Assembly (NCBI RefSeq): GCF_000372725.1
Contig: NW_005202176.1
Span: 353,152 to 376,880, forward strand
Source: Emiliania huxleyi CCMP1516
Taxonomy: Eukaryota
Direction: 5' to 3'
Length of the DNA stretch: 23,729 bases
Shown here: positions 2,178-23,729 of the stretch, piece by piece
Layout: every line of letters begins with the position of its first letter
How positions within the stretch are numbered: the stretch's first letter is position 1
Position numbers and translations under genes: made by a program
Notes under the pieces: generated by a model
Database searches by the model: none
Seen by the model: only the letters and a program-made list of their open reading frames with translations
Told to the model about the DNA's origin: nothing

Positions 2178-5100
2178 TCACGCCGGCAGCAGCGTGCCCC
2201 GCTCGCGCATCTCGCGCAGGAGCTCGCGCTGCGCGCCCGCGCCGGTCACGGCGTGGGCGGCGGCGATGCCCGACCCCGCGACGGCCGGGACGCCGATGCC
2301 CGGCCAGCACGAGTCGCCGCACGTCAGGAGTCCGTCCACGGCCGTGCGCGCGCCGGGGAAGGCGGAGTCCGCTGCGGAGAGCTCGGGGCCGTAGGTGCCG
2401 CGGTGGCGGCGCAGGAAGCGCTCGTGCGTGAGCGGCGAGCCGACCAGCTCCACATCGACCCGCGCCCGCACGTCGGGGATGAAGCGCTCGATGGCGGCGT
2501 ACAGCGGCGCCGCCCGCTCCGCCTTGAGCCGCCCGTACTAATTAGTGAATTAATTATGCGCCTAGTGAATTAACTAGTTGACTAATTCGTGCCTTGAGCC
2601 GCTCGTACTCCGCCGATCCGCGCGTGAGGCCCTCCCAGACCTCGTACGGCTCGGTGGCGGGCAAGTAGGCGTGGATGACGGCGCGGCCCTCGGGCGCGAG
2701 GGAGGGGTCGAGCAGCGACGGCACCGAGACGAAGGCGGCCGACTGCGGCTGCGTCAGCTTCTCCCACTCTGGCACCTACTCCCGCACGCGCGCGCACTCG
2801 TGAGGAGGGCCGCTCCCCTTGCCCTGCGCCGCCCGCTCTGCCGCCCGGGCGCCACGATGTGGTGGATTGAGGACAGCGCCTGGGAAGGTTCCAGGAAAGG
2901 TCCCAGGAGAGGTCTAGGAAGAGCCACGATGTGGTGGATTGAGGACAGCGCCTAGGAAGGTTCCAGGAAAGGTCCCAGGAGAGGTCTAGGAAGAGCCACG
3001 ATGTGGTGGATTGAGGACAGCGCCTGGGAAGGTTCCAGGAAAGGTCCCAGGAGAGGTCTAGGAAGAGCCGCGATGTGGTGGACTGAGGACAGCGCCTGCT
3101 CGCTCAGCCCATCGGAGCGGATGCCGAGGTGCAGGTGCACAAAGGACGGCGTCGGAGGCGTGCTCGCGTCGAGCGGGGCGCTGCCGGTGGCGCGCACCGC
3201 AGCGCGCGCTGCCGGAGGCAGGAGCGCCGCTGTCTGCCAGACGGGGGCGTTCGAGATGACTGCGCGCCGCGCGTGCACGACGCGGCCGCCGACGAGCCGC
3301 ACGCCCGTGCAGCGGCCGTCCGCCTCGTCCACGAGGATCTGCTCGACGGCGCTGCGCAGCCGCAGCTCGCCCCCGTGCTTGCGCAGGCCGCGCACGAGCG
3401 CCTCCACGACCGCGCCCGATCCGCCGAGGGGGTAGTCCATCCTCGCGCCGTCGGCGTGCAGCTCGGCGAGCATGTAGACCATGGCCGCGGCGACGGTGCC
3501 GTCCGACGGCAGCCCCGAGAAGGCAAAGGCGAGGAAGTCGAACCAGTTGCGCAGCCACGGGTCCGTCACGCCCGCAGCCTCGAGCACCGCCGACCACGTG
3601 CCAGAGAGCAGGTACGCGCGCAAGCCGATGCGCGGGTCAGCCATCGCGCCTAATTCATTACCGAATTCGTTCATTCGTTCACCAATCAAGCCGATGCGCG
3701 GGTCAGCCATCGCGCCCATGTAGGGTCCCGCCGTTAGCACGGCGCCCACGTCCGCCCGCAGCGCGATCGGCGGCACGGCGAGCACGGCGCGCTGCAGCGG
3801 CTCGATGAACTCGAGCAGCCGGTCCCACTGACCGACCGTCCTCTCGCCGTCGCCCAGCCGCGCCATCGTCCGCCGCCACTCGCCCATGTCGCCCGCGGCG
3901 GCGTAGAAGCCGGCCGGCGCCTCGGGTGTATACATGTTCCAGCCGCCGTACTGCACCCACTCCGGCGACTCGCCGACCGCGTCGAGCACCTGCCGCAGCG
4001 GGTTGGTCGACGGCGCAGCGCACCCGCTCCACAGCGACGGCCCGCTGTCGAACGTGTACCCGCCGCGCTCGAAGGCGTGCGCGCAGCCGCCCGCGATGTA
4101 GTGCGCCTCGCAGACCAGCACCTTGTGGCCGTACTTGGCGCTCAGCGCGCCCGCGCTCAGCCCGCCCAGCCCGCTCCCAACCACAACCACGTCGTACTCC
4201 TCCGCCGCCTCCTCCGCCGCCTCCGCCGCCGCCGCCTCCTCCGCCGCCGCCGCCGCCGCCGCCTCCGCCGCCGCCGCCGCCGCCTCGCTGCCGGCGAGCG
4301 ACATCCTCGGCGAGCCGCGTGGCGGCGGGCGGGCGGCCATCTGGACGCTCGCGCGCGCCGCCGCCGCCGCCGCGCCTCCCGCTGGCGACGGCGGCGCGGG
4401 CGGGCGCGTGGGGAGCGCAGGGCGGAGGGCGAGGTAGGCGCAGAGGCCGTAGAAGGGCACACACCTTGCGGCGGTGCGCAGCGCGCCGGCCTGCTCTGGC
4501 TCGACGCCGCGGCGGCGGAGGTCGTCGTCCACGAGCCAGCCCTGGAAGCAGGCGAAGAGGCCGAGATCGACCACGAAGCTCGAGCCGAGCCGGTCCTGCG
4601 AGAGGAGCTCGCCGAGCGAGGCGAGCCGCGCGGGGAGGTCTCCGAACTCTGGCCTTCCCGCCACGCCCCAGCCGAGGGCGAGGGTGCCCACCGAGGCGAG
4701 GAGCGGACCGAGGAGCCGCGACTCGCCCACCGCCGCCGCCGGCTCGTCGAACTCGTCCGCGTAGACGACCTCGCCGCCCTCGGGCGAGCGGGTGGCGAGG
4801 TACGGCAGGAAGAACGCGTTGGTCAGCAGCTGCATCCAGAGCACGGTCGGGAGCATCGAGCCCGAGGGGCGGCCCTTGCGGCCGTCGACCAGGAAGCCGC
4901 CAAAGGCCGCCGCCCAGGCGAGCAGGAGGTTGAAGATGGCCTCGAGGCCGGGGTGCACGGTCGGCGCGAAGGGGAGGCCGAGCAGCGGCGAGAGGAGCCA
5001 AAAGTTGAGCGACAGGTCGCGCACCTCGACCCAGGTGGCGGCGTCGAGCTGGGTGGCGTCCGGGCCGGGGAGGATGCCATTCGAGAAGAAGACGATGCTG

Positions 5101-5669
5101 CAGTAGAGGCCCCACGCGACGAGCGGCACGCCCCGCACCGGCTCCTTGATGACCTTGGAGGCGAGGCTGAGCAGCGCGAGACCCGCCGAGCCGGGCTTGA
5201 GCGGCGCTGGCTCCGGCACGTCGAAGCCGGAGACGAGTAGGCCGGCAGTGTCGGTCTTGTACATGGAGCAGCCGCGAGTGAAGGGCAGCGGCTGGCCGTC
5301 GTTCTCGACGTGCCACTGCACGCCGCAGGTGGCGCCTGCGTCGGCAACCTCGTCTATGCAGAACTGAAAGGTTGGCGGCAGCGCGTCGGCGACGCGGTTG
5401 AGGTGCGCCTCGAGTGCCTCCTTGCCGCTGAAGGCGTCTGCGTACTGCGTGTCGTCGTACTCGCACTCGTCGGCGAACTGAGCGACGGCCGCCGTCATGT
5501 CACGCTCGTTCCAGGCGGCAAAATAGCGGCGAATGGCCGCCGCCGCCGGTCCCTCGGCAGGAGGAGCGGTCATGCGCAGCGAGAACGCGCTCGAGCGCAG
5601 CGATGGGCTGCGGATTGGACCCACGTCGGGGCGGCGGAGGGCCACGGTGGCTGAGCCGACGAGCAACAT
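2178..5669 (-). CDS. Putative plastid-targeted fusion: SnoaL/NTF2-like domain + multi-pass membrane domain + carotenoid isomerase (CRTISO)/phytoene desaturase-family FAD oxidoreductase. Exons 5669-3716, 3649-3096, 2879-2853, 2775-2593, 2522-2178 (1020 aa)
   Basis: SnoaL-like [13 protein letters not shown]...[10 protein letters not shown]...EPAPLKPG. Rossmann [109 protein letters not shown]. Four GC-AG introns restore one frame (3063 nt with stop). Confidence 0.85.
2523..2592 (-). other. 70-nt GC-AG intron formed by a 19-bp exon duplication plus AT-rich filler
   Basis: Direct repeats gccttgagccgc(c/t)cgtact at 2521-2539 and 2591-2609 flank a 51-bp filler. Removal at AAG|GC joins YERLK to AERAAPLY. 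70 nt is not a multiple of 3 and contains stops, so splicing is required. Confidence 0.85.
2776..2852 (-). other. Ordinary 77-nt GC-AG intron
   Basis: ATCGTG|GCGCCC...GAGTAG|GTGCCA joins HHIV to VPEWEKL in frame. Confidence 0.7.
2851..3097. repeat. 72-bp tandem repeat (four 31-bp exon copies separated by three 41-bp fillers) forming a 216-nt GC-AG intron at 2880-3095 on the - strand
   Basis: gccacgatgtggtggattgaggacagcgcct at 2851, 2923, 2995 and a variant at 3067. Filler (g/a)ggaaggttccaggaaaggtcccaggagaggtctaggaaga. Donor CAG|GC, acceptor ccCAG|GC. Confidence 0.9.
3650..3715 (-). other. 66-nt GC-AG intron formed by a perfect 30-bp exon duplication plus 36-bp AT-rich filler
   Basis: caagccgatgcgcgggtcagccatcgcgcc at 3621-3650 and 3687-3716. 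Unspliced translation shows [10 protein letters not shown] twice. Donor G|GCGCGA, acceptor ttAG|GC. Confidence 0.75.
4200..4285. repeat. (GCC/TCC)n trinucleotide tract encoding a poly-Ala/Glu linker
   Basis: Runs of gcc interrupted by tcc; translates to [17 protein letters not shown] on the - strand. Confidence 0.85.
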
Positions 5670-7130: not shown

Positions 7131-7602
7131 GCCGGTGGAGCGTGCAGCGCAGCCTTCCGCTCGGACGAGCCACGCAAAGAAGCAGGCAGCCTGCCAGGTG
7201 CCGGATTGGGAGCAGCCGGCGTGGTGCCAGAGGGCCACGCGGCCGCTCTCGTACACGTCGAGCTCGCTGGTGTCGCGCCCGCGCCAGAGCGGGGCTCACG
7301 CTCGGTCAGTACGACGCGGGACGCGCGCATCCGCATCGAGACCTCTCATACTAGAGCATCATCGGCCATGGCCGCAGGGAGCGCGGGGGAGGGCGCTGGG
7401 AGCAACACGGAGCTCCGTTGGACGTTTTCAAGATTTTTAGCGTGTCAGAGTGTGAATTCAGTGGAACTAGCCAACTAGCAACTTCCCCACTCAAAAGCAA
7501 CAGCAAAATAAATAGTGGGACAGAGTGCGACGTCCCTGCGTCGCTCCTGTCATGCAATGGGTCGCGCCCCGACTTGCGGCGCGGCTTGACCTGTACATAG
7601 GC

Positions 7603-8859
7603 TTATCCGCACCCTTTGGCGGTGATGCCGGCGACGGCCTTGCCCAGGAAGGTGTCGACGAAGGCCTTGATCTTATCGGCGACGCCACGGAAGCGCGGGT
7701 CGGCGTTGCAGTGCGCCAGCCACGCCGCCAGCTTTGGACGGCCCTCGGTGACGGACCCCACGAGCGAAGCGGCGGCCTGGTCCTGCATCATGGCGACGGT
7801 CGGGTAGAGGACGACGTCGGCGAAGGAGATCGCGTCGCCGACACAGTAGGGCCCCGCGGGCCGCAGCAGCGACTCGACAAGATCGAGCTGCTTGAGGAGG
7901 TCCTTGAGGCGAGCGGCCCGCTCCGGGCCCGGCATCGCAGCCTTGTAGAAGACGGCCTGCGGCGGAGAGAGGCGCTGCCTCACCCCGGCACTGCCTCGCG
8001 CGCAGACGGGTGCGGCGGAGGCGCGGGGCGGCGGCGCTCTGCGGGTGGGAGAGTTGCGGCGTGGTGCCTGGTTCGAGAAGAACTGCGGCTGGGAGCAGTT
8101 TGTGCCAGAGATGTACATATCGTGCACGCGGACGAGGAGGGCGCTCAGCGCGCGAGCCTCGACCGTCGGGCCGCGGCAGTCGTTCTCGAGCAGCGGAGCG
8201 TACTTGTCGGCGACGTACGACAGGATGACGTCCGACTCGAACAGGCGCAGCCTGCACGCAGAGCGCGACGGTGTGAGAAGATGGTGGCGGCGGCGGTCCC
8301 CGCTCGTGAATCGCCGCGCGACCCTCCGGCGGTGAGGGCCACGGGACACAGCTTTTGTGGCGAGACCTGCGGCGGGCGGTGAGCATGAGCATGAGCCGTG
8401 CAACCGGCTAGCTGTCGCGCTGCTCCGTCGCCTTTGCAAACTCGTCGCCGCCAAAGCCGCCGTAATCGGCGGGCGTCTTCCAGTCGATCACCTTGCCACG
8501 AGGGGTGCCCGGCGGCGTGGAGCAAATGGGCGAGGCCCGGGCTTGGTGTGCCGTGGTGAGACGTGGGTGGCGGTGATGCAAACCTCGCCGAGCTTTGGGT
8601 TGAGGGCGGCAAAGAGCATGAGCCTGCCTGGGTTGTTGGTCGATATAATAACCACGGTGTCCTTCTTGCTGGCCGCAGGCGGCGGCTGCACGTCGCAGGA
8701 CTGGCGCTCGGCGGGACGTCCCTGACGGCCATTGCCGAAAACCTCGACGTCTCGTGCACCATGTCCGATCGCAGCCTTCGAGGCGAGGCCCGCCATGTCG
8801 TCGAGCGCTCCGGGAAGGTCGAACTCGATGTCGCGGGACGAGTGGCGAGCGCGGGACAT
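7603..8859 (-). CDS. Glutathione S-transferase family protein. Introns 8492-8583 (GT), 8367-8431 (GC), 8252-8322 (GT), 7957-8067 (GC); start uncertain
   Basis: Spliced: ISTNNPGRLMLFAAL...DEFAK|VSPQKLCPVAL..G|LRLFESDVILSYVADKY (cis-Pro and ES motif). C-terminal domain GPYCVGDAISFADVVLYP...RPKLAAWLAHCNADP. Confidence 0.82.
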
Positions 8860-9196
8860 GTCGCTGCTGGGGTGTGTGGTCGCAGCAGATCTCTGGCGCG
8901 GCCTGGGGTGCACACCAGCTGGGTGCACACGGACCCGAGGTGTCGTTCTCGAGGTTCTCGGAGGGGTGGATATGCTTCGGCCTGCGGTGCCTAACCATGA
9001 ATACCAGGCGTTTGCGGATTTGCTTTTTCGTTTTTCACTGCGCCCTTCGCTGTTCATTTGCGAGAGATTCTCCCGCCATTCTCTCGCCATTCTCCCGCCA
9101 TTCTTCCTCCTTTTGTTTAAATTCTTCCTCCGTTTTCCGAGTAATAACGGATTTGCAAGAAAAACCGATTTTCAACCCTGACTCGCACCAAAACGC

Positions 9197-10471: not shown

Positions 10472-12094
10472 CTAGACGTCGATGCCGCGCTCCTCGCACA
10501 CGGCCGCCAGCTCAGGCTGCACCTTGTTCTCCCAGCCCACGACGCGGAGCATCTGCGCGCGGAGCACCGGAGCATCAGCACGCGAGGGGAGGCGCGATGA
10601 GCATTGGGCGGGGGAGGGGCGTGCGGCGAGGGGTTCGTCTCGCGCCTTCAAGCTCGGGGCGGCCAGCGCCTTGCAGCCCTCTTCGCCAATCTGGTTGCCT
10701 TCGAGATAGAGCGTCTCGAGCCGCGGCGCTGTCCCCTCCTTTCCGATGGCGGCGGCCAGCGCCTTGCAGCCCTCGTCGCCAATCTTGTTGCCAACGAGAG
10801 AGAGCGTCTCGAGCCGCGGCACTGCCCCCTCCTTGCCGAGGGCGGCGGCCAGCGCCTTGCAGCCCTCGTCGCCGATCTGATTGTAGTTGAGCCAGAGCTT
10901 CTCGAGCCGCGGCGCCGCCCCGCTTGCCAGGACCTCCGCCAGCTGCGCCACCTCCGCGTCGCCCCAGCCGAGGTCGCCGTAGATCAGCACGGTCACCTTG
11001 CCAAACTGCTCCTAGAAGGCGGCCTCGTACAGCCGCTTCACCAGCGGCTTGTCGTCCTTGCCGTTGGTGAAGCTCTTCGACTCCAGCTCCGCTGCGAACG
11101 CAGACGGCAGCAGCGGAGGGCGCCGGCCGCCGTCCTGGGTGCAGTCGTCGGTTAGGCTGCCCCAGTCGTACTCCACGCCGTCGCGCATCTTGCCGAGGTC
11201 GAGCGAGAGGCGGCCGTCCTTGGTCAGGCTCGCCCAGCTGTTCTCGCAGAAGCACCAGCCGCGGTCAAAGTACGTGGCCACGTTGGTGCCCTCGGCCTGG
11301 TCCTCCGCATTGTGGCCGTCCGGGAAGGAGGTCAGCCGCAACACGAAAATCTGCGGGTTGGAGTAGAGGGTGCCGAGGCAGCCCAGCCCCTGCTTGAAGA
11401 GCGCGTTCTGCTCCTCGGTGCGCTCGACGCCGTGGGCGGGGTCGGGGTGCTGGTGCAGCGAGCCGAAGTCCCAAAAGACGCCGAGCCGCGTGAGGGGGCT
11501 GTGCGCGAAGTGGCTGTCAGTGAGCAGGGCCTTGAGCGCCCTTGCGACGCGGGAGAGGTTGGCTCCGCGCGGGTCGGGGTGGTCCTTGGTCAGCCACGGG
11601 TAGGAGAGCGCGGCGACGGGAAAGTCATCCTCGTCTGTGGCCTCGGCGAGGTCGGCGAGGGAGAGGAAGGCCTCTTTGGGCAGCGCCTGGCGGTGGGCGA
11701 GGACGCCACCCGCCTCGGCGTGGCTGATAATCCACTGAGCGTCGAGGAGTGCGACGGCGCCGCTCGCGAGGACCGGCTCCAGGTCGCCGCCGCCGTGCTT
11801 GCGCCAGTTCTTCAGCTTCTTGGCGGCAGAAGCGCGGGCCAGCCGCGCGTGTTGCACGGCGAACAGTATGATGCAAGCTTTCGGCCCGGAGCGAGATGCG
11901 TGAACCGCCGGGCCGGAGCGGATGGGGCGCACACCGCGAGAGCGGCGTTCCGGCTCTAGCGCAAGCCAGTGGCTTTTGTACCACGCGAACCACGCCTCTA
12001 GCTTGCTCTCGTCCACGCCGAGATCGGTGACCGGCTGCGTTGGCGCGGCGGTGCAGGGCAGCGACTTCTCGAAACACGCGCGCTTGGACAGCAT
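10472..12094 (-). pseudogene. HET-like domain + RI-type leucine-rich-repeat protein interrupted by one in-frame TAG at 11012-11014. Probable intron 10553-10645; start uncertain
   Basis: ALSYPWLTKDHPDP, VFWDFGSLHQ and YFDRGWCFCE resemble HET (PF06985) motifs. Three ~29-aa LRRs LExLxLxxNxIGDEGCKALA. The two ORFs are in the same frame, joined by YEAAF*EQFGK. Confidence 0.72.
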
Positions 12095-12869: not shown

Positions 12870-13274
12870 TCACACATCCTCAGCAGCTCTGTGTCTCGCT
12901 ATCTCCTCCTGAAGCAGTCGAGCCATGTCGTCCACGCTGTTTCGTGGTCGCGCCTCGCGGCTGCGCAACAAGCTCCGCACCGCCGCGTCAAAGTGACGCG
13001 CCGCCACCACTGGCGGCGGCACCGACTCGGCCTGCGTGACCGCTTGCCCCTCCGCGCCCGCCGCCTGGCCCCCGTCCGCCTCGTCGTCCTCGCTGCCGTC
13101 GTCGCTCTCGCTGCCGCTGCCGTCGGCGCCGTCCTGTGCCGCCACCGCCTCCGCCTCCGGGAGGCCCTCCTGGATTGCGCGCACCATCGCGTCGGCGCAG
13201 AGCGCGTAGTAGTCGGCGCCGGAGAGGCCGATGGGGCAGCGGGCGGCGACGTCGGACAGGGCGACGTCGGGCGC
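12870..13274 (-). pseudogene. C-terminal fragment of a PEX6-like AAA+ ATPase (D2 lid only)
   Basis: APDVALSDVAARCPIGLSGADYYALCADAMVRAI...VVAARHFDAAVRSL matches the PEX6-type GAD(F/Y)YALCxDA lid. In-frame TAG upstream at 13296-13298; no Walker A/B exons before the next gene. Confidence 0.65.
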
Positions 13275-13356
13275 TCGCTCGCCCTCTGCCTTCGGCTAAC
13301 CTCGGAATGTGACAGCAGTATTGCTGTGAACGTTCCTGCACAGCCTCTTACCTAAG

Positions 13357-13625
13357 GATGGCTGAGCTAGCTACAGTGCAGCCATAGCCTCCAGCCCGAT
13401 GGCTGCGATACACAGAGGGCAGCTATCCTGACTAGGGATGGCTGGAAGCTCGCTGCTGCAGCCATACCGCCCGCCCCGGGGCGGGCCCTCATGGCTGAGC
13501 TGGCTATATCGCAGCCATTTTGGGTAAGATGGCTGGGGCACAGCCATTGCAGCCATCTGCTATGGCTGGAGCACAGCGATTGCAGCCATCCGGAGCATGG
13601 CTGGTGATAATCGACAGCAGCCATC
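13357..13625. repeat. Low-complexity array of CAGCCAT/ATGGCTG in alternating orientation
   Basis: About 14 copies of the 7-mer or its reverse complement, mostly alternating. Confidence 0.8.
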
Positions 13626-13912
13626 CCGCCACCCCCGCCACGAGCCCGACGCCGCTGCTGGACGCCGCGGGCGCCGCCTCCGCCACTACACCCACCGGCA
13701 TCAAGAGAGGAGCTTGTAGAGAGCCGAGCCCACCCTCTCTGTTGATTGTCGGTGTGTTTTTCTTTTCGGCTTCTTCCCTCACCTCCTCCTCGTTCTAAAA
13801 GATCTGTAGAAAAAATTCATTTTTCGGAAGTTTGGGCGACCCGGACCCTTGGCGGACGACCATGATGAAATGCCGAAGCGGCTTCAGCTCTCACATGAGT
13901 GTAGGCATCATC

Positions 13913-18052: not shown

Positions 18053-18174
18053 ATGCTGCCTCTCGCCTCGCTCTTCTCGCCCTCCGTCACCACTCTCCTC
18101 AACGGCGTGCGCATCGAGCACGCCTCCTGGAACAGCGGCTCGTCCGACGCGGTCCTGCTCCTCATGGCACATGG
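18053..18174 (+). other. Possible first exon or remnant of an alpha/beta-hydrolase-like gene
   Basis: MLPLASLFSPSVTTLLNGVRIEHASWNSGSSDAVLLLMAHG has coding-like GC3 bias and ends in a hydrophobic-HG motif. No continuation found downstream. Confidence 0.3.
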
Positions 18175-18268
18175 GGCACAGCGCGCGCCTCTGTCCGGCC
18201 CTCTCCGAGCTCCGAGGGGGGGAAAGGGAATTACGCACCACACACACGCACGCGCACCCTGAGCCCTG

Positions 18269-18985
18269 GCTGTCAGGCTGTCAGGTGCTGTCACCTGTCA
18301 GGTGATCTGTCAGGCTGTCAGGCACTGTCAGGCACTGTCAGGTGCCTCTGTCAGACCAGCTGTCAGGTGCTGTCAGTGCTGTCGGGTGCTGTCGGGTGCG
18401 TGTCTGACATCAGAGGGGCTCCGTAGCTGTCGGGTGCTGTCGGAGCTGTCGGGTGTTGCTGTCAGACGCTGTCGGAGCTGTCAGAGCTGTCGGGCTGCTG
18501 CTGCTGTCAGAGACGCCGGTGCTGTCAGGTGCTGTCGGTTGGTGCTGTCGGGGTGCTGTCAGGCTCTGACACACCATCCACACTTATGACATTATCAAGA
18601 GGAGACCAGCAGGACTCTACTACACATACTCTAGCCTCTACTCTGCCAGAAGGGGTCCGCCTGGGGAGCGCAGATGGCGGCGCAGGCGCAGGCGGCGGCG
18701 ACGGCAGGCGCGGCACAGACGGCGGCGGCCACCCCCACCCAGACGCCGTAGGCATATGGCTGTAGGGCCCCAGAAGGCTAGCTGGTAGCTTCATCTGTAG
18801 TTGTAGCACAGCCGCGGGTCCGCAGAGCCAGAGGTGGGGCGGGAGGGTTGAGAGAGAGACCCATGAGGCATGACCATCCCATGTCGGAGCTGTGTACACA
18901 GTGCTGTCGGAGCTGTCAACACTGTTTCAGGCTGTAGGGCGCACTATCATGCGCTGTACGGGGGTATTTGCTGTCAGGCTGTCAG
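18269..18985. repeat. Degenerate CTGTCAG/CTGTCGG short-word arrays (18269-18570 and ~18880-18985)
   Basis: Dozens of ctgtc(a/g)g words at 8-11 bp spacing, with occasional inverted ctgaca copies. Confidence 0.85.
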
Positions 18986-19348
18986 ACCAAGGGCTCAGCG
19001 CGCACCGGCACGGGCAGCGGCCTTGCGCAGCGCTCGCTGTCGCGCAACGTGCAGACGTGCATCGCTAGTAGACTAAGCCACGCTTACAGGTACACGCACC
19101 CGGTCTCGGCCAAACCCACACCGGGGCACCGCCACGTCGCGCCCATTATCATCTCCCATATCTCACACCCAGACCCTTCCCCCACCTGCACGCCGTCCAC
19201 TTTCCCGCCACGTTACATGCATAGACACCGGATCCGACCCAGCTCGACCCGCACCAGCCTCTCCCCCTCTCTCCTCCTCGCACGACTTCATCCGATGGCC
19301 TCATCGTAGCCGTCCTAAACCGCGATTCAGTTGCCACGAGAAAGGCCC

Positions 19349-20561: not shown

Positions 20562-23500
20562 GTGCGGGAGATATGGGGAGATATGGGGAGAGATGGGGAG
20601 AGATGGGGCGATGTGGAACCTCGAGCGAGCCGTGCGGGAGATATGGGGAGAGATGGGGAGAGATGGGGAGAGATGGGGCGATGTGGAACCTCGAGCGAGC
20701 CGTGCGGGAGATATGGGGAGATATGGGGAGATATGGGGAGAGATGGGGCGATGTGGAACCTCGAGCGAGCCGTGCGGGAGATATGGGGAGAGATGGGGAG
20801 AGATGGGGAGAGATGGGGCGATGTGGAACCTCGAGCGAGCCGTGCGGGAGATATGGGGAGATATGGGGAGAGATGGGGAGAGATGGGGCGTTGTGGAACC
20901 TCGAGCGAGCCGTGCGGGAGATATGGGGAGATATGGGGAGAGATGGGGAGAGATGGGGCGATGTGGAACCTCGAGCGAGCCGTGCGGGAGATATGGGGAG
21001 AGATGGGGAGAGATGGGGAGAGATGGGGCGATGTGGAACCTCGAGCGAGCCGTGCGGGAGATATGGGGAGATATGGGGAGAGATGGGGCGATGTGGAACC
21101 TCGAGCGAGCCGTGCGGGAGATATGGGGAGATATGGGGAGAGATGGGGAGAGATGGGGCGATGTGGAACCTCGAGCGAGCCGTGCGGGAGATATGGGGAG
21201 ATATGGGGAGAGATGGGGAGAGATGGGGCGATGTGGAACCTCGAGCGAGCCGTGCGGGAGATATGGGGAGATATGGGGAGAGATGGGGAGAGATGGGGCG
21301 ATGTGGAACCTCGAGCGAGCCGTGCGGGAGATATGGGGAGATATGGGGAGAGATGGGGAGAGATGGGGCGATGTGGAACCTCGAGCGAGCCGTGCGGGAG
21401 ATATGGGGAGATATGGGGAGAGATGGGGAGAGATGGGGCGATGTGGAACCTCGAGCGAGCCGTGCGGGAGATATGGGGAGATATGGGGAGAGATGGGGAG
21501 AGATGGGGCGATGTGGAACCTCGAGCGAGCCGTGCGGGAGATATGGGGAGATATGGGGAGAGATGGGGAGAGATGGGGCGATGTGGAACCTCGAGCGAGC
21601 CGTGCGGGAGATATGGGGAGATATGGGGAGAGATGGGGAGAGATGGGGCGATGTGGAACCTCGAGCGAGCCGTGCGGGAGATATGGGGAGATATGGGGAG
21701 ATATGNNNNNNNNNNNNNNNNNNNNNNNNNNNNNNNNNNNNNNNNNNNNNNNNNNNNNNNNNNNNNNNNNNNNNNNNNNNNNNNNNNNNNNNNNNNNNNN
21801 NNNNNNNNNNNNNNNNNNNNNNNNNNNNNNNNNNNNNNNNNNNNNNNNNNNNNNNNNNNNNNNNNNNNNNNNNNNNNNNNNNNNNNNNNNNNNNNNNNNN
21901 NNNNNNNNNNNNNNNNNNNNNNNNNNNNNNNNNNNNNNNNNNNNNNNNNNNNNNNNNNNNNNNNNNNNNNNNNNNNNNNNNNNNNNNNNNNNNNNNNNNN
22001 NNNNNNNNNNNNNNNNNNNNNNNNNNNNNNNNNNNNNNNNNNNNNNNNNNNNNNNNNNNNNNNNNNNNNNNNNNNNNNNNNNNNNNNNNNNNNNNNNNNN
22101 NNNNNNNNNNNNNNNNNNNNNNNNNNNNNNNNNNNNNNNNNNNNNNNNNNNNNNNNNNNNNNNNNNNNNNNNNNNNNNNNNGGCGGCTTCAACGTTACGC
22201 GAATCGCAGAATGGAGGGTTGGCTCCTCGCGCGTGTGCGATCCGGCGGCGAGTGAGCGTGCGGGCGCAGCCTTGAGCGACCCGTGCGGGAGATATGGGGA
22301 GATATGGGGAGATATGGGGAGATGTGGAACCTCGAGCGATCCGTGCGGGAGATATGGGGAGATATGGGGAGATATGGGGAGAGATGGGGCGATGTGGAAC
22401 CTCGAGCGAGCCGTGCGGGAGATATGGGGAGATATGGGGAGATATGGGGAGAGATGGGGCGATGTGGAACCTCGAGCGAGCCGTGCGGGAGATATGGGGA
22501 GATATGGGGAGAGATGGGGAGAGATGGGGCGATGTGGAACCTCGAGCGAGCCGTGCGGGAGATATGGGGAGATATGGGGAGATATGGGGAGAGATGGGGC
22601 GATGTGGAACCTCGAGCGAGCCGTGCGGGAGATATGGGGAGATATGGGGAGAGATGGGGAGAGATGGGGCGATGTGGAACCTCGAGCGAGCCGTGCGGGA
22701 GATATGGGGAGATATGGGGAGAGATGGGGAGAGATGGGGCGATGTGGAACCTCGAGCGAGCCGTGCGGGAGATATGGGGAGATATGGGGAGAGATGGGGA
22801 GAGATGGGGCGATGTGGAACCTCGAGCGAGCCGTGCGGGAGATATGGGGAGATATGGGGAGAGATGGGGAGAGATGGGGCGATGTGGAACCTCGAGCGAG
22901 CCGTGCGGGAGATATGGGGAGATATGGGGAGAGATGGGGAGAGATGGGGCGATGTGGAACCTCGAGCGAGCCGTGCGGGAGATATGGGGAGATATGGGGA
23001 GAGATGGGGAGAGATGGGGCGATGTGGAACCTCGAGCGAGCCGTGCGGGAGNNNNNNNNNNNNNNNNNNNNNNNNNNNNNNNNNNNNNNNNNNNNNNNNN
23101 NNNNNNNNNNNNNNNNNNNNNNNNNNNNNNNNNNNNNNNNNNNNNNNNNNNTGGGGAGAGATGGGGGCGATGTGGATCCTCGAGCGAGCCTTACGGGAGA
23201 TTTGGGGATATATGGGGAGAAATGGGGAGAGATGGGGCGATTTGGAACCACGAGCGACCCGTGCGGGACTTATGGGGAGATATGGGGAGAGATGGGGAGA
23301 GATGGGGCGATGTGGAACCTCGAGCGAGCCGTGCGGCAGATATGGGGAGATATGGGGAGAGATGGGGAGAGATGGGGCGATGTGGAACCTCGAGCGACCC
23401 GTGCGGGAGATATGGGGAGATATGGGGAGATATGGGGAGAGATGGGGCGATGTGGAACCTCGAGCGACCCGTGCGGGAGATATGGGGAGATATGGGGAGA

Positions 23501-23729
23501 TATGGGGAGATATGGGGAGATATGGGGCGATGTGGGACCTCGAGCGATCCTTTCGGGAGATATGGGGAGATATGGGGAGATATGGGTCGATGTGGAACCT
23601 CGAGCGAGCCGTGCGGGAGATATGGGGAGATATGGGGAGATATGGGGAGATATGGGGAGAGATGGGGCGATGTGGAACCTCGAGCGACCCGTGCGGGAGA
23701 TATGGGGAGATATGGGGAGAGATGGGGCG
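20562..23729. repeat. 60-bp satellite: ~23-bp unique core (gtggaacctcgagcgagccgtgc) plus 10-bp ggggaga(t/g)at words, interrupted by N gaps
   Basis: Blocks at 20562-21705, ~22273-23051 and 23152-23729. Unit length varies by exactly 10 bp in places. A unique segment lies at 22182-22272. Confidence 0.95.

What the first reader, a model, noticed from the sequence alone, without database searches (positions are those of the whole stretch)
2521..3716. Three introns in one gene share a 'duplicated exon + low-complexity filler' architecture: candidate intron-generating system
Seen: introns 2523-2592, 2880-3095 and 3650-3715 each consist of a near-perfect 19, 31 or 30 bp direct duplication of host coding sequence containing a G|GC or AG|GC site, plus a 51, 41 or 36 bp filler. 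The fillers differ from each other and from the GC-rich host, and are built of short degenerate words (TAATT/GAATT; CCAGG/AGGAA; ATTCGTTC), two of them at roughly 10-11 bp spacing. Splice sites come from the duplication, so splicing regenerates the original CDS exactly. Copies differ by 0-2 substitutions, implying recent origin. Established: introner transposons also co-opt target-site duplications as splice sites, but have short TSDs and a shared element sequence. Inference: these arise from staggered-break repair with slipped or non-templated DNA synthesis (polymerase-theta-like, terminal-transferase-like or telomerase-like), tolerated because GC donors are accepted. I cannot confirm novelty.
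Basis: partly seen in the sequence, partly recalled or inferred. Interest (0 to 1): 0.88.

Follow-up and report, generated by a model that had tools for sequence, protein, structure and literature searches.

The report
Newborn introns: exon copy plus filler
In a carotenoid-isomerase-like gene of the alga Emiliania huxleyi, three inserts of about 70 bases each consist of a 19-31-base copy of the gene's own coding sequence plus a stretch of simple repeats; they are likely young introns, likely left when staggered DNA breaks were patched with newly made repeat DNA, which would be a recurring way for these algae to gain introns.

Summary
The three units (66, 72 and 70 nt; duplications of 30, 31 and 19 bp) recur in independent metagenome contigs.

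Corrections: intron 2 is three tandem units here but one in two other alleles. The filler period is 4/8/12 nt (introns 1, 3) or 12 nt (intron 2), not 10-11. The fillers of introns 1 and 3 are different strings of the same in-register 4-nt words. The A of intron 1's acceptor comes from the filler.

The design recurs elsewhere: 8 of 14 unrelated loci with another filler type carry flanking duplications 51-96 nt apart. A related haptophyte has a telomere-repeat insert in this same gene, present in 7 and absent in 2 sequences that are 99% identical.

Splicing was not shown by RNA, and no genome was available. Against: a distant haptophyte has an intron at intron 2's position. Best reading: a long-overhang, simple-repeat variant of intron gain by break repair, not a classical introner. 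The enzyme is unknown.

The parts
2178..5669 (-). Host gene: one reading frame running from a SnoaL-like domain through a hydrophobic middle part into a CRTISO/phytoene-dehydrogenase-like FAD oxidoreductase; all four introns lie in the oxidoreductase part
3650..3715 (-). I1, predicted GC-AG intron, 66 nt; donor from the duplication, acceptor A from the filler and G from the duplication
   Evidence: present in L001 and L002; exactly absent in P0002
3687..3716 (-). I1 duplication, first copy (intronic except its first base)
3651..3686 (-). I1 filler, 36 nt = 9 in-register 4-nt words, 33% GC
3621..3650 (-). I1 duplication, second copy (exonic except its first base)
2880..3095 (-). I2, predicted GC-AG intron: three tandem 72-nt units (31-bp exon copy + 41-nt, 12-periodic pyrimidine-rich filler); a single unit in L001 and L002
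3067..3097 (-). I2 first copy, with two amino-acid-changing differences from the orthologue-like last copy (predicted intronic)
2851..2881 (-). I2 last copy: a 27-nt exon (2853-2879) that ends in the donor of I2b
2776..2852 (-).
2523..2592 (-). I3, predicted GC-AG intron, 70 nt; both splice sites from the duplication; branch-point-like word 20 nt before the acceptor; a second in-frame AG 15 nt earlier
   Evidence: present in L001; absent in P0137
2591..2609 (-). I3 duplication, first copy (exonic except its last 2 bases)
2540..2590 (-). I3 filler, 51 nt (13 in-register 4-nt words when the next base is counted), 29% GC
2521..2539 (-). I3 duplication, second copy (intronic except its last 2 bases; carries the one mismatch)
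20562..23729 (-). Related feature: 70-bp tandem array with assembly gaps; each unit is about 30 nt of non-repetitive sequence with one AG|GT site on the minus strand plus about 40 nt of 10-periodic filler. Possibly an amplified unit of the same kind; host gene not seen

Best explanation
The three inserts are direct duplications of 19-31 coding bases around a 36-51-nt simple-repeat filler; they are likely young spliceosomal introns, each likely made in one step when a staggered break with a long overhang was filled in (giving the duplication) and bridged by newly synthesised repeat DNA.

Steps: (1) offset nicks 19-31 nt apart in an exon [inferred]. (2) A polymerase adds 35-50 nt of repeat words to an end. 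Because one word set recurs at separate sites and is not copied from the flanks, it likely copies a short template of its own or an abundant repeat by repeated jumps: telomerase for the telomere-type insert of the related alga, unknown for the three here [inferred]. (3) Fill-in and joining duplicate the overhang [duplication shown, route inferred]. (4) Inserts survive when the copy holds G|GC or AG|GC and the whole reaches about 65-75 nt, so that this GC-donor-rich spliceosome removes it exactly [frame restoration shown, splicing inferred]. (5) The two copies later allow unequal exchange, so that one unit becomes three (shown for I2 between alleles) or perhaps dozens, or is lost cleanly [inferred].
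For: Anatomy and nulls. Independent alleles.

The spliced model aligns without gaps over 528 aa to P0003, P0135 and P0136 at 91%. Genomic L004 has no intron at I1, I2b or I3, and L005-L007 have none at I2b or I3. P0002 (98.8% identical) lacks I1 exactly but reads into I2. P0137 (96.8%) lacks I3.

All 3 differences between copies in the window fall in the copy predicted to be intronic when polarised on orthologues. Window vs L001: 5 differences in 1584 coding nt (4 silent) against 5 in the 87 filler nt of I1+I3.

The fillers are not copied from the flanks: longest shared word 6 nt, reached by 287-497 of 500 shuffles. They are not alignable to each other. The I1 and I3 fillers are 4-phased (0 of 5000 shuffles for each of 5 alleles; statistic chosen after seeing the period) and share 6 of 9 words in the L001/L002 alleles (2 of 5000) and 4 of 9 in the window (103 of 5000).

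Generality: of 37 filler blocks with usable flanks in 17 unrelated ORFs, 14 beat the maximum of 350 cross-locus pairs. One is filler against filler, leaving 13 of 36; 8 of 14 loci; offsets 51-96 nt, median 76. P0021 shows an in-frame 8-aa duplication 30 aa apart in the same gene family. Telomere-type insert: 7 listed members of P0025's cluster run into it after five duplicated codons, 2 members 99.0% identical lack it, and L005 shows its acceptor end in DNA. Three L004 introns keep 10-11-bp junction duplications, above the null maximum of 8.

Precedent: Daphnia neointrons from staggered breaks (PMC4202315, passages); telomerase insertions at breaks with target duplication (PMC2246262, passages).
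Against: No RNA reads were seen, so the junctions are predictions; intron retention is common in this species (reads through 478 of 535 introns, PMC4028052). I1 is stop-free and in frame in the window allele. I3 has a second in-frame acceptor that would add 5 residues. A single 293-nt intron 2776-3068 also opens the frame.

L004-L007 have an intron at I2's exact site, so that site may be old. P0002, P0137, P0003, P0175 and P0176 were seen only as proteins and could be transcripts, not empty alleles. L002's exonic I2 copy has its own Ile-to-Leu change, and window vs L002 shows 3 amino-acid changes in 9 differences.

No genome was held, so distant copies of the fillers cannot be excluded. The 17 ORFs were found with a query that is itself filler plus spacer, which favours tandem cases; their organisms are unknown; 23 of 37 blocks did not pass; and 7 proteins, one from each of 7 of the 8 passing loci, had no Pfam match, so their duplicated pieces are only inferred to be coding. 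The two ends of the telomere-type insert come from different records (L005 is 95% identical to P0175). The fillers show no significant hairpin energy (z -1.4 to +0.65), so snap-back synthesis is not supported. Only this one gene in the window's first 20 kb has the design.
Confidence: 0.55

Rival explanations
1. A mobile element makes them: a short non-autonomous introner, or tail-only insertions of a non-LTR or Penelope-type retro-element by target-primed reverse transcription. The duplication is then an unusually long target-site duplication and the filler a repeat tail that varies quickly.
For: Filler types recur at many loci (17 ORFs share the satellite's 10-mer type). Unit length is nearly constant (66, 72, 70, 70). 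The I1 and I3 fillers share words. I3's filler has a 7-bp inverted pairing near its ends. Introner screens list small E. huxleyi families, one noted with '10bp terminal direct repeats' (PMC12130899 supplement file 8 rows), and they removed low-complexity families (PMC9860276, passage). Variable, sometimes long duplications from target-primed reverse transcription are recalled, not checked.
Against: Described introner duplications are 3-9 bp (PMC9860276) or 3-8 nt and fixed per class (bioRxiv 10.1101/2020.10.14.339549, passages); here they are 19, 30 and 31 bp. The three fillers do not align (best pair reached by 108 of 500 shuffles). I1 and I3 use the same words in a different order. A protein search with the I2 read-through gave 12 hits, all unrelated repeats (weak test).
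Confidence: 0.22
2. The introns are older, ordinary introns. The duplications arose later by local tandem duplication or gene conversion across the junction, and the simple repeats grew inside them.
For: An intron sits at I2's site in L004-L007. I2's copy includes the donor of the neighbouring intron I2b, and I2 has expanded by tandem duplication. Simple repeats are abundant in this genome (PMC12480563, passage).
Against: Each of I1 and I3 consists of nothing but the copy and the filler. Both sites are empty in genomic L004 (I3's also in L005-L007) and in 91%-identical orthologue proteins. The L004-L007 intron is unrelated in sequence, and its weak duplication lies on the other side of the junction (8-12 bp upstream). 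Parallel gain at one site made up 43 of 90 Daphnia gains (PMC4202315).
Confidence: 0.11
3. The inserts are real but are not removed exactly: I1 is retained (22 extra residues) or uses inner sites, I3 uses the nearer AG, or the alleles are damaged.
For: I1 is open in frame in the window. I3 has a second in-frame AG. The public gene models P0122 and P0123 use other junctions. Intron retention is common.
Against: The same units occur in several alleles with an otherwise intact gene and mostly silent differences. I1 has an in-frame stop in L001 and L002. Copy differences sit in the predicted intronic copies. The public models were mostly ab initio and biased to GT donors (PMC4028052). The nearer AG lies only 5 nt after the branch-point-like word.
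Confidence: 0.09
4. Assembly artefact.
For: The window has gaps and repeat arrays; the three-unit form of I2 was seen only here.
Against: L001 and L002 are independent assemblies with the same units and allele-level differences.
Confidence: 0.02

Closest known systems
Neointrons from repair of staggered double-strand breaks, Daphnia pulex (PMC4202315, passages; reviewed in PMC3488318 and PMC3296678, passages)
   Same: A new intron with a copy of the adjacent exon end at its other end, an insert of unknown source, polymorphism, parallel gain at one site.
   Different: Daphnia exon-intron repeats are 4-12 bp (33 cases); here 19-31 bp, half the intron. Fillers here are periodic word strings that recur between loci, and unit length is close to 70 nt.
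Introners / introner-like elements (PMC9860276, PMC12130899, bioRxiv 10.1101/2020.10.14.339549; passages and supplement rows)
   Same: Splice sites taken wholly or partly from the duplicated target; mRNA unchanged; marine protists with GC donors.
   Different: Duplications of 3-9 bp fixed per family, a shared element sequence, often terminal inverted repeats. None of these holds for the three inserts, and the 2022 screen removed low-complexity families.
Intron birth by tandem duplication of a segment that contains AG|GT (Hellsten et al., PMC3265369, abstract only)
   Same: A duplicated proto-splice site gives both ends (I2, I3) and exact restoration.
   Different: There the intron is duplicated host DNA; here 36-51 nt of foreign filler bring a short duplication up to a spliceable length.
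Interstitial telomeric sequences inserted at breaks by telomerase (PMC2246262, passages)
   Same: A repeat made at a break, sometimes with target duplication (6 of 130 rodent and 4 of 25 primate loci); matches the telomere-type insert in L005 and the P0025 cluster. TTAGGG is the haptophyte telomere (PMC3622300, passages).
   Different: Not described as introns in the passages read; duplication is the minority outcome; the three window fillers are not telomeric.

Membership tests
Introner (intron-generating transposon) | Many near-identical copies of the element at unrelated loci | tested here: inconclusive
   No alignable likeness among the three fillers; outside their own introns, 8-mer word matches in the window (only 8-mers were tested); protein search found only unrelated repeats. 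No genome to search.
Introner (intron-generating transposon) | Short target-site duplication (3-9 bp) of fixed length, or none | tested here: not met
   30, 31 and 19 bp against 3-9 bp (PMC9860276).
Introner (intron-generating transposon) | Terminal inverted repeats (many, not all, families) | tested here: inconclusive
   None for the I1 and I2 fillers; a 7-bp end pairing in the I3 filler, folding z -1.4.
Introner (intron-generating transposon) | Splice sites co-opted from the duplication or carried by the insert, mRNA unchanged | tested here: met
   Predicted junctions restore the orthologous protein; from sequence only.
Neointron from staggered-break repair | Direct repeat of the adjacent exon end at the far end of the intron | tested here: met
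   (30, 32, 19 against a null maximum of 8)
Neointron from staggered-break repair | Recent and lineage-restricted, with empty sites in relatives | tested here: inconclusive
   I1 and I3 sites empty in genomic L004 (I3's also in L005-L007) and in close proteins P0002, P0137, P0003, whose DNA was not seen; I2's site is occupied in L004-L007.
Neointron from staggered-break repair | Insert with no homologous source element | tested here: inconclusive
   Not from the 150-nt flanks; rest of the genome not available.
Neointron from staggered-break repair | Formed at an actual break by an end-joining pathway | not testable with these tools
   Needs induced breaks or repair mutants.
Tandem-duplication intron (Rogers/Hellsten type) | Duplicated segment holds AG|GY and gives both splice sites | tested here: met
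   I2 and I3 yes; I1 takes the acceptor A from the filler.
Tandem-duplication intron (Rogers/Hellsten type) | Intron made wholly of duplicated host sequence | tested here: not met
   36-51 nt of non-host filler.
Telomerase-made interstitial telomeric insertion | Insert of TTAGGG/CCCTAA repeats | tested here: not met
   Not in I1-I3; met only for the separate insert in L005.
Telomerase-made interstitial telomeric insertion | Microhomology in register with the telomerase template at the break | not tested
   The 5' junction of the telomere-type insert was seen only as protein.
Spliceosomal GC-AG intron of E. huxleyi | Removed from transcripts at the predicted junctions | not tested
   No reads were obtained; indirect support only.

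The most novel reading that the evidence does not exclude
Haptophytes run a standing intron factory without a transposon. A template-bearing, template-jumping polymerase (telomerase in some lineages; another reverse transcriptase or repair polymerase that strings 4-, 10- or 12-nt words in Emiliania) patches long-overhang breaks in exons and leaves units of about 70 nt of exon copy plus repeat. These units would be a main source of the group's new introns, of its intronic simple repeats and, by unequal exchange, of its 70-bp satellites.
Probability: 0.25. Interest if true: 0.9.

Novelty: new variant of a known kind. Interest (0 to 1): 0.68.

Why it matters
Where new introns come from is an open question. 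The reported break-repair cases carry 4-12-bp footprints that are hard to tell from chance, and the 2022 introner screen discarded low-complexity families. Here the footprint is 19-31 bp and unmistakable, occurs three times in one gene, and appears to recur in other genes and lineages with different repeat alphabets, one of them telomeric. If it holds genome-wide, it gives thousands of datable birth events in a species with many sequenced strains. That would make gain rate, overhang length, the minimal-length filter and the source of the inserted DNA directly testable. It would also explain the repeat-filled introns and mis-annotated gene models of coccolithophores. The in-register 4-nt word strings point to a DNA-synthesising activity that I could not match to a known enzyme.

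Tried and rejected
No genome is held for this window, and no sequencing reads were obtained: splicing, the three-unit form of I2 and empty alleles remain open.

Attempts to gather more Emiliania DNA failed. The host protein found nothing in viral contigs. A satellite word gave 0 viral hits and 1 Streptomyces hit. An I2 filler word gave 7 viral hits, all chance matches in unrelated sequence. HMMER with the I2 read-through over 1.84 billion proteins gave 12 unrelated repeat proteins. A search for longer homologues found no full-length fused or transcript-derived Emiliania protein among 22 hits.

Rejected: 10-11-bp filler spacing; local templating from the flanks; a strong hairpin or snap-back signature (palindrome excess only in the I3 filler, 9-10 of 1000 shuffles); assembly artefact. 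The single 293-nt intron is disfavoured, not excluded, because it would keep the copy with two changes from the orthologues.

The repeat blocks at 13150-13800 and 18150-19100 and the GST-like gene (7600-8950) show no flanking exon duplication of 12 bp or more. The second L004 intron was left out of the junction null because its donor was ambiguous.

Ten literature searches showed no paper describing this design in haptophytes. The library lacks most subscription papers; the 2013 Emiliania genome paper and the 2009 Daphnia paper were not held. Supplement files 13 and 14 of PMC12130899 were not searched and no introner consensus sequences were seen, so overlap with its small E. huxleyi families is open.
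Full report
Setting. The window encodes, on the minus strand, a CRTISO/phytoene-dehydrogenase-like protein that matches the Emiliania huxleyi gene model EOD40572 (P0123) residue for residue outside the junctions; a second model, EOD16224 (P0122), is a near copy. GC donors are the majority in this species (56-65%) and intron retention is common (PMC4028052, passages). No genome was held and no reads were obtained.

Observation. The three units are there. I1 is 66 nt with a 30/30 duplication and a 36-nt filler. I2 has a 31-bp copy and a 41-nt filler. I3 is 70 nt with a 19-bp copy (one mismatch) and a 51-nt filler. Removing them and a fourth, ordinary 77-nt intron (2776-2852) gives an open frame that aligns without gaps over 528 residues to P0003, P0135 and P0136 at 91%. 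Junction duplications of 30, 32 and 19 bp stand against a maximum of 8 in 68 cross-paired junctions, while I2b and two DnaJ introns of the window score 6, 5 and 2. Of 8 loci from a metagenome scan, L001 and L002 are 99%-identical alleles. L001 has all four introns; L002 has I1, I2 and I2b before it leaves the gene. In both, I2 is one unit; the window has three.

Are they spliced? This is not shown. Indirect support: I1 has an in-frame stop in L001 and L002. All 3 differences between copies in the window lie in the copy predicted to be intronic when compared with orthologues. The coding sequence differs from L001 at 5 of 1584 nt (4 silent), while the I1 and I3 fillers differ at 5 of 87. P0002 lacks exactly the 22 residues of I1 but reads into I2, and P0137 lacks I3; either could be an empty allele or a transcript. 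Against: I1 is open in the window allele; I3 has a second in-frame AG; one 293-nt intron could replace I2+I2b; L002 has an amino-acid change in its exonic I2 copy and 3 non-silent differences of 9.

Age. Genomic L004 (78% identity; it has other introns) is empty at I1, I2b and I3, and L005-L007 at I2b and I3. All four carry an intron at I2's exact site. It is unrelated in sequence, 109-137 nt long, and its weak duplication lies on the upstream side, while the closer P0003 group reads straight through as protein. Parallel gain at an AG|GC site is my reading (43 of 90 Daphnia gains were parallel; PMC4202315, passages), but an old site is not excluded. The units predate the split of the alleles seen, and the copies have diverged by 0-2 bases.

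The fillers. They are not 10-11-periodic. Those of I1 and I3 are strings of 9 and 13 in-register 4-nt words (0 of 5000 shuffles reach the phase statistic in each of 5 alleles; the statistic was chosen after the period was seen). They share words such as ACGA, ATTA and GTTA in a different order: 6 of 9 in the L001/L002 alleles (2 of 5000 shuffles), 4 of 9 in the window (103 of 5000). They do not align with each other, are not copied from 150 nt of flank and do not fold better than shuffles. I2's filler is 12-periodic (0 of 5000). A shared alphabet without a shared order and without a local source suggests a polymerase that re-primes on a small template; this is inference.

Beyond this gene. The window's 70-bp array (20562-23729) has the same make-up: about 30 non-repetitive bases with one AG|GT site on the minus strand and about 40 bases of a 10-periodic filler; its host is hidden by gaps. 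Its translation found 17 ORFs from unnamed contigs. In a frame-aware test, 37 of their 42 filler blocks had usable flanks and 14 beat the best of 350 cross-locus pairs. One of the 14 is filler against filler, leaving 13 of 36, at 8 of 14 loci, with offsets of 51-96 nt, median 76. The query favours tandem cases, the organisms are unknown, and 7 proteins, one from each of 7 passing loci, had no Pfam match, so the pieces are inferred to be coding.

In the host gene family itself, a scan of 201 proteins found P0021 with an 8-residue duplication 30 residues apart around a filler; the other hits were P0122, P0123 and two N-terminal tandem repeats. In the cluster of P0025 (15 of 49 members listed), 7 run from five duplicated codons into a telomere-like filler, 2 that are 99.0% identical read straight through yet stop in the next intron, and 6 do not cover the site. 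L005, 95% identical to those 2, shows such a filler of CCCTAA repeats ending in AG before the same codons. The two ends come from different records. TTAGGG is the haptophyte telomere (PMC3622300, passages) and is pervasive inside the Calcidiscus genome (PMC13518057, passage). Three L004 introns keep 10-11-bp junction duplications, as older cases might.

Mechanism. Most likely (0.55): offset nicks or a staggered break, repeat synthesis on an end, fill-in that duplicates the overhang, and survival of those inserts that hold G|GC and reach a spliceable length near 70 nt. The copies then permit expansion, as I2 shows, or clean loss. The duplication, the filler anatomy and the change in unit number are shown; the break, the enzyme and the splicing are inferred. 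A mobile element with long target duplications (0.22) remains open because no genome could be searched. Older introns with later duplication (0.11), inexact splicing (0.09) and artefact (0.02) follow. Polymerase-theta end extension and long duplications from target-primed reverse transcription are recalled from memory, not checked.

Comparison. It works like intron gain at staggered breaks, where Daphnia footprints are 4-12 bp, and it shares splice-site co-option with introners, whose duplications are 3-9 bp. It fails the introner test on duplication length and is undecided on copy number. The 2022 introner screen counts 653 elements in this genome but removed low-complexity families. The 2025 screen lists three families of 5, 6 and 45 copies, one noted with 10-bp terminal direct repeats; I saw no sequences. 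Direct repeats of 4-30 bp near splice sites have been reported broadly (PMC11782384, abstract). Telomerase insertions at breaks sometimes duplicate the target. Ten searches found no description of this design in haptophytes (listed under Tried and rejected). That the 2013 genome paper reports 10-11-bp repeats in introns is recalled only. Two earlier AI notes from other genomes describe similar units; they are leads, not support.

Verdict. Real, probably general in haptophytes, and a new variant of a known kind: long duplications, a near-constant unit and recurring repeat alphabets. Interest 0.68; 0.9 if a dedicated template-jumping polymerase is behind it (probability about 0.25).

Noticed in passing
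window 2178-5669 (-): The oxidoreductase is in one stop-free frame with an upstream SnoaL-like domain and a hydrophobic middle part, with an Ala/Pro-rich linker; the same order is in L001 and in the 78%-identical L004, so a conserved fusion or polyprotein is likely. The public models start only at 4304.
   Followed up: partly
window 20562-23729: 70-bp tandem array of at least 26 exact core copies across gaps; unit built like the introns studied, with one AG|GT site on the minus strand.
   Followed up: partly
L005 1-76 and the P0025 cluster: Telomere-repeat insert with a likely 16-base exon duplication in the orthologous gene, present in 7 and absent in 2 near-identical sequences.
   Followed up: partly
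P0170, P0171, P0178, P0179 (cluster of P0025): The other introns of that lineage also seem present in some sequences and absent in others, which suggests rapid turnover or partly spliced transcripts.
   Followed up: no
P0002 residues 1-22: N-terminus unrelated to the window's, joined where the window has a 15-bp tandem repeat (4138-4167): a chimera or another insertion.
   Followed up: no
L002 1238-1767: The contig leaves the gene abruptly into unrelated sequence that ends in a short repeat: a chimera or rearranged allele.
   Followed up: no
window 12900-13640: C-terminal piece of a gene (AAA-ATPase-like by recall) next to a block of quasi-palindromic 28-29-bp repeats; no flanking duplication found.
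   Followed up: partly
window 18268-18990: Block of degenerate 8-10-bp repeats without an exon-like duplication.
   Followed up: partly
window 10500-11900 (-): Gene with three 93-bp leucine-rich-repeat-like units and an apparent in-frame stop near 11012, seen by eye only.
   Followed up: no
P0005 cluster: Several ORFs of a 70%-identical lineage break off within a codon or two of the I2b site, so an intron near I2b may exist there too.
   Followed up: no
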